Positions 12,283-12,676 are shown, counted from the first letter of the stretch. The stretch is DNA of 64,000 nucleotides from Escherichia coli (GCF_045037415.1 NZ_CP173438.1), one strand, 5' to 3'. Numbers and translations are program-made. The notes: generated by a model not told the origin, from the sequence alone.

Positions 12283-12456
12283 TCACATTATTTTGATTTT
12301 GACATCATAACTTTCAAGCCCGGTCATTTTTTCTCGTGCGGTGAAGCGAATTTCAGAGACTTCTTTCCCTGTATTCTTGTTCAGCTCGGCGATTTTTTGC
12401 GCGATAAAGTCGGCGATTTCCGTTTCGGCTTGTTTTTTTAACTCTTCAATATTCAC
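12283..12456 (-). CDS. gnsA: GnsA (small protein, multicopy suppressor of secG null)
   Basis: Reverse-strand translation from GTG at 12456 gives NIEELKKQAETEIADFIAQKIAELNKNTGKEVSEIRFTAREKMTGLESYDVKIKIM (57 aa), matching GnsA; missed by the ORF track because of the GTG start and short length. Confidence 0.85.
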   Translation of the reverse strand: MNIEELKKQAETEIADFIAQKIAELNKNTGKEVSEIRFTAREKMTGLESYDVKIKIM

Positions 12457-12676
12457 TGTTAACCTCTTCTGGTCTTAAAAGACAGCAACACGCCAGTAAG
12501 GTGTTGGTTCCCGGTACCCTGGTCAGGTAAGAAATGTTATAAGCCATCTCCCCGAAAGATTCAATAATCAACAGGTTATCGCTTACTATACATACAGCGT
12601 TGAAGAAAAATAAGGCAGATATAAAAAAGGCTCCACGAGGGAGCCTGATATTATTTTGTGAAATCCAGCGGCGCAT
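12446..12676 (-). CDS. ymcE: Small cold-shock-locus protein YmcE (Sfa)
   Basis: 76-aa translation MRRWISQNNIRLPRGAFFISALFFFNAVCIVSDN... matches YmcE; 3' end overlaps the gnsA start by 11 bp. Confidence 0.7.
   Translation of the reverse strand: MRRWISQNNIRLPRGAFFISALFFFNAVCIVSDNLLIIESFGEMAYNISYLTRVPGTNTLLACCCLLRPEEVNSEY

What the first reader, a model, noticed from the sequence alone, without database searches (positions are those of the whole stretch)
12446..12676. A terminator-like hairpin sits inside the first codons of ymcE, and ymcE overlaps the GTG-initiated gnsA
On the minus strand, about 200 nt downstream of the cspG stop, there is a GGCTCC-CTCGT-GGAGCC hairpin followed by TTTTTTAT (12623-12650). 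This is exactly where codons 9-17 of the annotated ymcE ORF (…RLPRGAFFI…) lie. The ymcE 3' end then overlaps the GTG start of gnsA by 11 bp. This raises the question of whether ymcE is translated from a read-through cspG transcript, whether the hairpin is the cspG 3' end, or whether ymcE is mis-annotated. The arrangement is compact and could be regulatory, for example cold-induced read-through coupling cspG to gnsA.
Basis: seen in the sequence. Interest (0 to 1): 0.25.

Follow-up and report, generated by a model that had tools for sequence, protein, structure and literature searches.

The report
cspG-ymcF terminator inside doubtful ymcE ORF

Summary
A 7-bp GC-rich hairpin (12646-12628, minus strand) plus U-tract lies inside annotated ymcE, and ymcE overlaps the GTG start of gnsA by 11 nt. 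The hairpin is therefore the intrinsic terminator of the cspG-ymcF bicistron.

- **3' ends:** published Term-seq in K-12, where this sequence is identical, places RNA 3' ends on the U-tract. The site is Rho-independent, with terminator score 8.1.
- **Conservation:** a hairpin plus T-tract starts within 12 nt of the ymcF stop in 33 of 44 csp-linked loci across Enterobacteriaceae, against a 3% background. There are 19 different stems and compensatory changes.
- **ymcE is not conserved:** it occurs only in Escherichia. Its ATG is lost in 4 of 6 non-coli Escherichia lineages and its frame is broken in 4 of 6.
- **ymcE shows no coding signature:** variable sites by codon position are 12/6/10, against 3/2/22 for ymcF and 7/1/18 for gnsA. 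dN/dS is about 0.8-0.9.
- **What the ORF covers:** the terminator, a variable spacer, a candidate sigma-70 promoter (TTGAAT-17-TATAAC) and a near-invariant gnsA leader. Both of the latter are also found upstream of Citrobacter gns genes that lack ymcE.

Cold-induced read-through into gnsA stays plausible but unproven. This is ordinary, largely known biology with a probable mis-annotation.

The parts
12850..13062 (-). cspG coding sequence (cold-shock protein), first gene of the operon
   Evidence: ORF; RefSeq annotation. Rfam cspA thermoregulator RF01766 matches 12796-13218 at 160 bits.
12651..12839 (-). ymcF, a 62-aa CxxC...CxxC small protein with an ATT start codon, 10 nt after the cspG stop.
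   Evidence: RefSeq 'cold shock small protein YmcF'. Pfam PF23641, E = 1.6e-49. More than 137 homolog clusters across Enterobacteriaceae. Variable sites by codon position 3/2/22 and dN/dS 0-0.05.
12621..12646 (-). Intrinsic terminator of cspG-ymcF: stem AGGCUCC/GGAGCCU, loop CUCGU, then UUUUUAU
   Evidence: -11.8 kcal/mol, z = -3.94. Term-seq 3' ends at K-12 1051900/1051901, which map to window 12623/12622; Rho score 0.51 ('No'); intrinsic terminator score 8.09. Position conserved with 19 different stems. 6 of 7 consensus pairs show compensatory changes.
12446..12676 (-). Annotated ymcE ORF (76 aa). Judged here to be a non-conserved frame over regulatory DNA.
   Evidence: Homologs only in Escherichia/Shigella. 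ATG lost in L003, L005, L006 and L034; frame broken in L002, L003, L004 and L034. Variable sites by codon position 12/6/10 plus 9 gap columns. dN/dS 0.8-0.9. No purine-rich ribosome-binding site before the ATG.
12581..12620 (-). Variable spacer after the terminator. It occupies the position where ynfN lies in the related modules.
   Evidence: Most variable stretch of the Escherichia alignment, with indels. ynfN is present at this position in Citrobacter and in 76 of 80 viral (prophage) loci.
12536..12564 (-). Candidate sigma-70 promoter of gnsA: -35 TTGAAT (12564-12559), 17-nt spacer, -10 TATAAC (12541-12536). Predicted start near 12528.
   Evidence: Read from the sequence. Both hexamers and the 17-nt spacing are kept while the spacer sequence varies, in Escherichia and in 9 Citrobacter loci that lack ymcE. 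Not confirmed by any start-site data I could reach.
12457..12528 (-). Predicted gnsA 5' leader, with Shine-Dalgarno AGAGG. The last ~60 nt are nearly invariant.
   Evidence: 0-1 variable columns per 15 nt over 12505-12446 in 8 Escherichia sequences. Core CTGGCG.GTTG..G.C.TT..A.ACCAGAAGAGGT shared with Citrobacter. No supported RNA structure.
12283..12456 (-). gnsA coding sequence, GTG start, 57 aa
   Evidence: Pfam PF08178. PDB 4XO1/4XO2. Variable sites by codon position 7/1/18 and dN/dS 0-0.09.
12244..12276 (-). gnsA terminator hairpin (GAACAUCACC...GGUGAUGUUC)
   Evidence: Fold of -15.6 kcal/mol, z = -3.68. Term-seq 'primary' 3' end of gnsA at K-12 1052279, which maps to window 12244.

Best explanation
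The hairpin is the Rho-independent terminator that ends the bicistronic cold-shock transcript cspG-ymcF. It sits 4 nt after the ymcF stop codon, and RNA ends on its U-tract.

Downstream, gnsA is a separate unit with its own sigma-70 promoter (TTGAAT-17-TATAAC, 12564-12536), a leader of about 72 nt, a strong Shine-Dalgarno sequence, a GTG start and its own terminator.

The annotated ymcE ORF is a reading frame that happens to stay open across the terminator, a short variable spacer, the gnsA promoter and the gnsA leader. The spacer lies where the related modules carry ynfN, which would be explained if ynfN was lost from an ancestral csp-ymcF-ynfN-gns module. ymcE is most likely not a conserved protein-coding gene and not the antitoxin of GnsA.

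- **Shown:** the hairpin and its position, 3' ends at it in K-12, its conservation with changing stems, and the lack of any coding signature or conservation for ymcE.
- **Inferred:** the gnsA promoter and start site, the loss of ynfN, and that a leaky fraction of the massively cold-induced cspG-ymcF transcript runs through the terminator and adds a cold-inducible component to 'ymcE'/gnsA RNA.
For: - **ymcF:** annotated, Pfam E = 1.6e-49, stop 4 nt before the stem.
- **Hairpin stability:** -11.8 kcal/mol, z = -3.94.
- **3' ends:** Term-seq (Adams et al. 2021, PMC7815308) finds 3' ends at 1051901 (LB OD 0.4) and 1051900 (M63), which are the last U and the following A. Rho score 0.51, not a Rho region; intrinsic terminator score 8.09. 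K-12 is identical to the window here.
- **Conservation of the terminator:** 33 of 44 csp-linked ymcF loci have a hairpin plus T-tract starting within 12 nt of the stop, against 3.15% of random positions. There are 19 distinct stems. 6 of 7 consensus pairs have compensatory changes.
- **No gnsA needed:** the terminator is present in Salmonella, Kosakonia and Siccibacter, which have no gnsA downstream.
- **ymcE distribution:** only 28 clusters among 5.8 billion proteins, all Escherichia/Shigella apart from one partial entry labelled Salmonella at 100% identity.
- **ymcE decay:** ATG lost and/or frame broken in 5 of 6 non-coli Escherichia lineages, while ymcF and gnsA are intact in all of them.
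- **Coding signature:** variable sites by codon position are 12/6/10, against 3/2/22 (ymcF) and 7/1/18 (gnsA). dN/dS is 0.8-0.9 against <=0.09.
- **Constraint type:** 'synonymous' divergence is 0.08 in ymcE against 0.51 in the flanking genes, so the constraint acts on the nucleotides.
- **Promoter and leader:** the hexamers and leader are conserved upstream of Citrobacter gns genes that lack ymcE.
- **Related modules:** 75 of 80 viral (prophage) loci and the Qin locus have csp-ymcF-(ynfR)-ynfN-gnsB, with no ymcE.
Against: - No transcription start-site data for gnsA could be retrieved, so the promoter is a prediction. The tool's own promoter scan did not list it, because its rule requires T at position 6 of the -10 hexamer.
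- ymcE is intact and annotated in 60 of 60 sampled E. coli genomes, although these are only 0-2.4% divergent.
- Overexpressing ymcE from the ASKA clone gave a small butanol-tolerance effect.
- Arrays label ymcE a cold-shock gene.
- In the paralogous locus an ORF across the terminator (ynfR) is translated in the cold, so low-level translation of ymcE cannot be excluded.
Confidence: 0.75

Rival explanations
1. Regulated terminator. The hairpin works as a conditional attenuator. In the cold, RNA polymerase reads through it, either because Csp proteins melt the stem or because a ribosome stopping at the ymcF stop codon 4 nt upstream covers the 5' arm. gnsA, and the ymcE frame, would then be expressed as part of a cspG-ymcF-ymcE-gnsA transcript, coupling membrane-lipid adjustment to cold shock.
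For: - In the paralogous Qin module, ynfR starts 2 nt after the ynfQ stop and reads through the equivalent hairpin. Its SPA-tagged product rose strongly after cold shock (VanOrsdel et al. 2018). That requires transcripts extending past that terminator.
- ymcE is listed as a cold-shock gene on arrays.
- DirectRNA-seq coverage is as high downstream as upstream of the 3' end (569 vs 468).
- The stop-to-stem distance is short (1-10 nt) in most csp-linked loci.
- From established knowledge: CspA-family proteins act as transcription antiterminators (Bae et al. 2000).
Against: - The terminator is equally conserved where nothing gns-like follows.
- gnsA and its Citrobacter relatives carry a conserved promoter-like element and leader of their own.
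- No alternative (antiterminator) structure appears in the fold of the surrounding 66 nt.
- No cold-shock 3'-end or read-through data were available. Equal coverage at 37 C is also what an independent gnsA promoter would give.
Confidence: 0.25
2. YmcE is a genuine small protein that acts as the antitoxin of the GnsA toxin (a type II toxin-antitoxin pair). The 11-nt overlap would provide translational coupling.
For: - Pfam names the families YmcE_antitoxin (PF15939) and GnsAB_toxin (PF08178).
- RefSeq calls gnsA an 'addiction module toxin'.
- The pair is listed among E. coli toxin-antitoxin systems in a modelling paper.
- The antitoxin-then-toxin order with a short overlap is typical of such pairs.
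Against: - gnsA stays intact in Escherichia lineages where ymcE has lost its start or frame.
- Citrobacter gns genes, K-12 gnsB and 79 of 80 viral-contig homologs have no ymcE.
- ymcE shows no purifying selection.
- No GnsA-YmcE complex is in the PDB; GnsA was solved alone.
- gnsA and gnsB ASKA plasmids rescue growth rather than kill.
Confidence: 0.05
3. ymcE is a very young gene, born de novo in E. coli from regulatory DNA. It would be translated at a low level, for example from read-through transcripts, into a Phe-rich membrane peptide, and would not yet show conservation.
For: - The ORF is intact in all 60 sampled E. coli genomes.
- A phylostratigraphy study assigns it a young phylostratum.
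- Overexpression gives a mild phenotype.
- The ynfR precedent shows that an ORF across the equivalent terminator can be translated.
Against: - There is no Shine-Dalgarno sequence before the ATG, which lies inside ymcF.
- E. coli and Shigella variants show N-terminal replacements, deletions and frameshifts.
- The hydrophobic stretch is simply the translated U-tract and T-rich spacer.
- Intactness at <=2.4% divergence carries little weight.
Confidence: 0.12
4. The last ~40 nt of ymcF plus the terminator are released as a stable small RNA, homologous to the Salmonella candidate sRNA STnc220, that acts in trans.
For: - Rfam RF02077 matches 12613-12693 over the full model (34.1 bits, E about 1e-4 to 8e-4).
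- It scores 102 bits at the same position, the ymcF 3' end plus terminator, in two Salmonella loci.
- The Term-seq 3' end is fairly abundant.
Against: - The score is below the family's gathering threshold (60).
- The stretch just upstream of the hairpin (12700-12656) is the most variable part of ymcF, so there is no conserved seed.
- No paper in the searchable library mentions STnc220.
Confidence: 0.08

Closest known systems
Qin-prophage module cspI-ynfQ-ynfR-ynfN-gnsB of E. coli K-12 (and the same module in prophages and Citrobacter)
   Same: Same gene order and spacing: a csp gene, a 10-nt gap, a 62-aa YmcF-family gene with an ATT start, a terminator hairpin of nearly the same sequence right after its stop, then a gns gene further on.
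   Different: The window's locus lacks ynfN and ynfR. The terminator sits only about 60 nt from the gnsA promoter, and an unrelated ORF (ymcE) is annotated across the junction.
Canonical Rho-independent (intrinsic) terminators
   Same: GC-rich 7-bp stem, 5-nt loop, U6 tract, 3' ends on the U-tract, insensitive to Rho inhibition.
   Different: Nothing unusual in the terminator itself. Only the out-of-date annotation made it look 'internal' to a gene.
Rfam RF02077, Salmonella candidate sRNA STnc220
   Same: Occupies the same place, the 3' end of the ymcF homolog plus its terminator, and aligns over the full model.
   Different: The window scores 34 bits, below the 60-bit threshold. No evidence here that it acts as an sRNA.
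Putative GnsA/YmcE type II toxin-antitoxin pair (Pfam PF08178/PF15939)
   Same: Small upstream ORF overlapping a small downstream gene by 11 nt.
   Different: The partner is not co-conserved, ymcE shows no coding constraint, and gnsA persists without it.
Csp-mediated transcription antitermination (Bae et al. 2000; recalled from established knowledge, not read here)
   Same: A terminator downstream of a cold-shock gene, with cold-induced expression beyond it in the paralogous locus.
   Different: No direct evidence of read-through at this terminator.

Membership tests
Intrinsic (Rho-independent) terminator | GC-rich stem-loop immediately followed by a U-tract | tested here: met
   7-bp stem with 5 GC pairs, 5-nt loop, then five more U (six T in a row counting the last stem base) followed by AU. 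-11.8 kcal/mol, z = -3.94.
Intrinsic (Rho-independent) terminator | Lies at the end of a transcription unit, after a stop codon | tested here: met
   Begins 4 nt after the ymcF TAA.
Intrinsic (Rho-independent) terminator | RNA 3' ends map to the U-tract in vivo and do not depend on Rho | tested here: met
   Published Term-seq in K-12, which is identical in sequence here: 3' ends at 1051900/1051901, Rho score 0.51 'No', terminator score 8.09. This is literature data, not my own experiment.
Intrinsic (Rho-independent) terminator | Structure conserved while the sequence changes | tested here: met
   33 of 44 loci against 3.15% background, with 19 distinct stems. 6 of 7 pairs show compensatory changes.
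Protein-coding gene (ymcE) | Open frame and start codon conserved in relatives | tested here: not met
   ATG lost in 4 and frame broken in 4 of 6 non-coli Escherichia lineages. Absent outside the genus.
Protein-coding gene (ymcE) | Excess third-position change and dN/dS well below 1 | tested here: not met
   Variable sites by codon position 12/6/10; dN/dS 0.8-0.9. Flanking genes give 3/2/22 and 7/1/18, with dN/dS <= 0.09.
Protein-coding gene (ymcE) | Evidence of translation | not testable with these tools
   No ribosome-profiling or proteomic table could be retrieved.
Type II toxin-antitoxin pair (GnsA/YmcE) | Antitoxin gene co-occurs with the toxin gene | tested here: not met
   ymcE accompanies gns homologs only in the Escherichia cspG locus. 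It is absent from Citrobacter, Qin gnsB and 79 of 80 viral-contig loci.
Type II toxin-antitoxin pair (GnsA/YmcE) | Both genes in one operon driven from upstream of the antitoxin | tested here: inconclusive
   The 11-nt overlap is present. However, a terminator lies inside ymcE, and the only conserved promoter-like element is also inside ymcE.
Type II toxin-antitoxin pair (GnsA/YmcE) | Toxin is toxic and is neutralised by binding the antitoxin | not testable with these tools
   The PDB holds GnsA alone, 4XO1/4XO2. gnsA and gnsB plasmids rescue growth in one study.
Regulated terminator / attenuator in the gnsA leader | No promoter between the terminator and the regulated gene | tested here: inconclusive
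   A conserved TTGAAT-17-TATAAC element lies between them, but no start-site data could be obtained.
Regulated terminator / attenuator in the gnsA leader | Competing antiterminator structure, or condition-dependent read-through | tested here: inconclusive
   The fold of the 66-nt context shows only the terminator plus weak flanking pairs. Cold-induced YnfR at the paralogous terminator suggests leakiness. There are no cold-shock 3'-end data.
Rfam RF02077 STnc220 | Score at or above the gathering threshold (60 bits) | tested here: not met
   34.1 bits in the window. 102 bits in the Salmonella loci at the homologous position.

The most novel reading that the evidence does not exclude
The cspG-ymcF terminator, and its twin after ynfQ, may be a cold-conditional gate. 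At 37 C it ends the transcript. In cold shock a useful fraction of the massively induced transcript would run through it, either because Csp proteins melt the stem or because a ribosome at the ymcF stop 4 nt upstream covers the 5' arm. That would place gnsA/gnsB, which raise unsaturated fatty acids, under cold-shock control. The frames that cross the hairpin (ymcE, ynfR) would then be translated by-products or reporters of that read-through.
Probability: 0.2. Interest if true: 0.45.

Novelty: already known. Interest (0 to 1): 0.25.

Why it matters
The hairpin itself is routine. The useful outcome concerns annotation. ymcE (b0991) is carried in K-12 annotation, NCBIfam and Pfam as 'YmcE antitoxin', and the 'YmcE-GnsA toxin-antitoxin system' is reused in reviews and modelling work. 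The comparative evidence here says the frame is not conserved and not under protein-level selection, and that it covers a terminator, a promoter and a leader.

The result also corrects a published classification. Term-seq listed this 3' end as 'internal to ymcE / in the gnsA 5' UTR'. With ymcF annotated, it is a normal operon-end terminator.

If the read-through idea were true, it would give a simple link between cold shock and membrane-lipid adjustment.

Tried and rejected
- **RNA structure in the gnsA leader.** RNAalifold on 13 Escherichia and Citrobacter leaders found only 3 trivial pairs and no compensatory change. The single-sequence fold is no better than shuffles (z = +0.64). A CTGG/CCAG stem that I proposed by eye, with apparent CTTG/CAAG covariation, turned out to depend on a 1-nt register shift, so I dropped it.
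- **Start-site data for gnsA.** Thomason 2015 is not held. The Conway 2014 supplements are not held. The Cappable-seq and SMRT-Cappable-seq supplements gave no hit.
- **Origin of ymcF and evidence for its translation.** Weaver 2019 mentions neither the locus nor cold shock, and its supplements are not held. VanOrsdel 2018 uses the name 'ynfQ' for a different gene from today's b4724.
- **Sugai 2001.** My memory is that this paper assigns the 'sfa' suppressor effect to gnsA. The paper is not held, so this point rests on memory plus the way cites it.
- **sRNA reading.** STnc220 is considered unlikely to act as an sRNA here, because the region upstream of the hairpin is variable.
- **Plus-strand terminator.** The scan also scores the hairpin on the + strand. 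Its tail is poor (GATATTATTT), and no + strand gene ends nearby.
- **ymcE integrity within E. coli.** 60 of 60 sampled genomes are intact, but this is uninformative at <=2.4% divergence.

Full report
**What is in the sequence.**

The window around 12.2-13.3 kb is the E. coli cspH / cspG / gnsA / yccM region. It is 100% identical to several complete genomes. On the minus strand the order is:

- cspG (12850-13062);
- a 10-nt gap;
- an ORF ending ...APLDFTK*;
- the hairpin;
- the rest of the annotated ymcE ORF (12446-12676);
- gnsA (12283-12456, GTG start).

It matches Pfam PF23641 at E = 1.6e-49.

The hairpin is AGGCUCC-CUCGU-GGAGCCU (12646-12628), followed by UUUUUAU. It starts 4 nt after the ymcF TAA. 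It folds at -11.8 kcal/mol, with z = -3.94 against shuffles.

The peptide RLPRGAFFI is codons 11-19 of ymcE, not 9-17. And ymcF is missing from the description. The 11-nt ymcE/gnsA overlap is real.

**The hairpin is a working terminator.**

K-12 is identical to the window through this region. Mapping uses window = 12456 - (K-12 coordinate - 1052067).

The Term-seq tables of Adams et al. 2021 (PMC7815308) list 3' ends at 1051901 (LB OD 0.4; 4,284 reads) and 1051900 (M63; 10,359 reads). These map to window 12622 and 12623, which are the A after the U-run and the last U of the run. The Rho score is 0.51, it is not a significant Rho region, and the intrinsic-terminator score is 8.09, where 3.0 or more predicts intrinsic termination.

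Their annotation predates ymcF. The site was therefore filed as 'internal to ymcE' and '166 nt upstream of gnsA'. With ymcF in place it is an ordinary operon-end terminator.

**Comparative evidence for the terminator.**

YmcF has more than 137 homolog clusters across Enterobacteriaceae. A scan of one genome per species returned 80 loci. In 44 of them, ymcF follows a csp gene after the same 10-nt gap. Of those 44, 33 have a hairpin plus T-tract starting within 12 nt of the ymcF stop, against 3.15% of random positions in the same loci. They carry 19 different inner stems. Examples are:

- AGGCCCCU/AGGGGCCU in Citrobacter;
- AAAACAGGUCAG/CUGACCUGUUUU in Kosakonia;
- AAAGCCUCGCA/UGCGGGGCUUU in Siccibacter.

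RNAalifold on 19 of them predicts the stem, and 6 of 7 pairs show compensatory double changes. The terminator is present in genera with no gnsA downstream, such as Salmonella and Kosakonia. It therefore belongs to csp-ymcF, not to gnsA.

**ymcE does not behave like a gene.**

- **Distribution.** In a database of 5.8 billion proteins, YmcE has 28 clusters. All are Escherichia or Shigella apart from one partial entry labelled Salmonella at 100% identity, and many are truncated or are fusion calls.
- **Start codon.** Among six non-coli Escherichia lineages, the annotated ATG is AGG, ATA, AGG and AGG in L003, L005, L006 (E. albertii) and L034.
- **Frame.** It is broken in L002 (2-nt and 1-nt deletions with internal stops), in L003 (a 6-nt deletion creates TGA), and in L004 and L034 (1-nt deletion). 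ymcF and gnsA are intact in every one of these lineages.
- **Codon-position pattern.** Variable alignment columns by codon position are 3/2/22 in ymcF and 7/1/18 in gnsA. In the ymcE-only part they are 12/6/10, plus 9 gapped columns.
- **dN/dS.** It is 0-0.05 for ymcF and 0-0.09 for gnsA. For ymcE it is 0.8-0.9 against the two lineages with open frames.
- **Type of constraint.** The 'synonymous' divergence of ymcE against E. albertii is 0.08, compared with 0.51 in both neighbours. The constraint therefore acts on the nucleotides themselves.
- **Ribosome-binding site.** There is no purine-rich site before the ATG, which lies inside ymcF.
- **Variants within E. coli and Shigella.** These include N-terminal replacements, internal deletions and frameshifts.
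- **Hydrophobic core.** The stretch GAFFISALFFF is simply the translated U-tract and T-rich spacer.

Within E. coli proper the ORF is annotated in 60 of 60 sampled genomes. These differ by 2.4% or less, so this says little.

**What the ymcE frame actually covers.**

Variability along the Escherichia alignment falls into blocks:

| Window coordinates | Feature | Conservation |
|---|---|---|
| 12655-12626 | Terminator | Conserved |
| 12625-12581 | Spacer | Variable, with indels |
| 12580-12521 | Promoter block | Conserved |
| 12520-12506 | Indel hotspot | Variable |
| 12505-12446 | Leader end, Shine-Dalgarno sequence, GTG | Almost invariant |

The conserved block at 12580-12521 contains TTGAAT (12564-12559), a 17-nt spacer and TATAAC (12541-12536). 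The same hexamers occur at the same spacing, with a different spacer sequence, upstream of Citrobacter gns genes. The same leader core (CTGGCG.GTTG...ACCAGAAGAGGT) occurs there too. Those genes lie 300-640 nt from ymcF and have no ymcE frame. That pattern is what a sigma-70 promoter looks like.

I could not confirm the start site from published data. No RNA structure is supported in the leader, so the reason for its extreme conservation is unexplained.

**Origin of the arrangement.**

K-12's Qin prophage carries a paralogous module:

- cspI;
- ynfQ (62 aa, ATT start);
- the hairpin AAGGCUCC-UUCG-GGAGCUUUUUU;
- ynfN;
- gnsB.

The 21-codon ynfR starts 2 nt after the ynfQ stop and reads through the hairpin. 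The order csp-ymcF-(ynfR)-ynfN-gns is found in 75 of 80 viral (prophage) loci and in seven Citrobacter chromosomes. ymcE appears in only one viral contig, which is the E. coli cspG locus itself.

The cspG-gnsA locus thus looks like the same module without ynfN. That leaves the terminator about 60 nt from the gnsA promoter, with a frame that happens to stay open across the junction.

**Read-through.**

VanOrsdel et al. 2018 reported that YnfR-SPA, barely detectable normally, rose strongly after cold shock. The tag lies beyond the terminator, so this implies read-through of the twin terminator when cspI is induced.

By analogy, a leaky fraction of the heavily induced cspG-ymcF transcript could explain why arrays call ymcE a cold-shock gene, and it could add to gnsA expression. 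This is inference. The available 3'-end data are from 37 C, and equal coverage on both sides of the site (468 vs 569) fits an independent promoter just as well.

**Toxin-antitoxin reading.**

Pfam and RefSeq names, and some papers, treat YmcE/GnsA as a toxin-antitoxin pair. The defining co-conservation fails:

- gnsA persists where ymcE is broken;
- gnsB and nearly all homologs lack ymcE;
- GnsA was crystallised alone;
- gnsA and gnsB plasmids rescue growth in one study.

**Verdict.**

The feature is an already-known kind of element, and its 3' end is already mapped in K-12. The main value is as an annotation correction.

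Noticed in passing
window 12837-12839 (ymcF start); loci L002-L081 position 2501: ymcF starts with ATT, a non-canonical start codon. Across 80 species-level loci, ymcF genes that directly follow a csp gene (10-nt gap, stop codon + GG as Shine-Dalgarno sequence) start with ATT in 39, ATC in 3 and ATG in 2. Unlinked copies (Enterobacter, Klebsiella, Leclercia, Raoultella) start with ATG in 29 and ATT in 3. This suggests ymcF translation is tied to csp translation (reinitiation) or to IF3 levels.
   Followed up: partly
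L083 1689-1754 (K-12 ynfR) and hairpin after ynfQ; window 12621-12646: In the Qin module, the validated cold-induced 21-aa protein YnfR (MKAPSGAFLL...) is encoded across the terminator hairpin of ynfQ. This gives the same '..P.GAF..' peptide as ymcE codons 13-17. A translated ORF spanning an intrinsic terminator implies read-through in the cold.
   Followed up: partly
L007, L008, L012, L015-L017, L019 (~2840-2990); 76 of 80 viral loci L084-L163: ynfN, a 51-aa protein of unknown function, is the conserved gene between the ymcF terminator and gns genes in prophages and Citrobacter. It is missing from the Escherichia cspG-gnsA locus. If Gns proteins have a conserved partner, ynfN is a better candidate than ymcE.
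   Followed up: partly
window 12613-12693 (-); L013 2647-2726; L022 2647-2725: The Rfam candidate sRNA STnc220 (RF02077) corresponds to the last ~40 nt of the ymcF homolog plus its terminator in Salmonella (102 bits). The window matches below threshold (34 bits). The 'sRNA' is probably the 3' end of the csp-ymcF mRNA.
   Followed up: partly
window 12446-12505 (-): The ~60 nt before and including the gnsA start are almost invariant across 8 Escherichia sequences (0-1 variable columns per 15 nt). That is more conserved than the neighbouring coding sequences, and partly shared with Citrobacter. No RNA structure is supported (z = +0.64), so the reason for the constraint is unknown; a protein or sRNA binding site is possible.
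   Followed up: partly
window 13348-13560 (cspH, +) and 13548-14858 (appA, -): appA ends directly against cspH, with a 13-nt convergent overlap. In K-12, cspH is instead flanked by IS1D and gfcA. This strain therefore lacks K-12's IS1D/gfcA flank at this junction.
   Followed up: no
window 12796-13218 (-): The cspG 5' UTR and coding region match the Rfam cspA thermoregulator (RF01766, 160 bits), as expected for a CspA-family cold-shock gene.
   Followed up: no
K-12 1051900/1051901 (window 12623/12622): The published Term-seq tables classify this 3' end as 'internal, ymcE' and 'upstream ORF, -166 from gnsA'. This is because ymcF was not in the annotation they used. It is a normal 3' end of cspG-ymcF.
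   Followed up: yes
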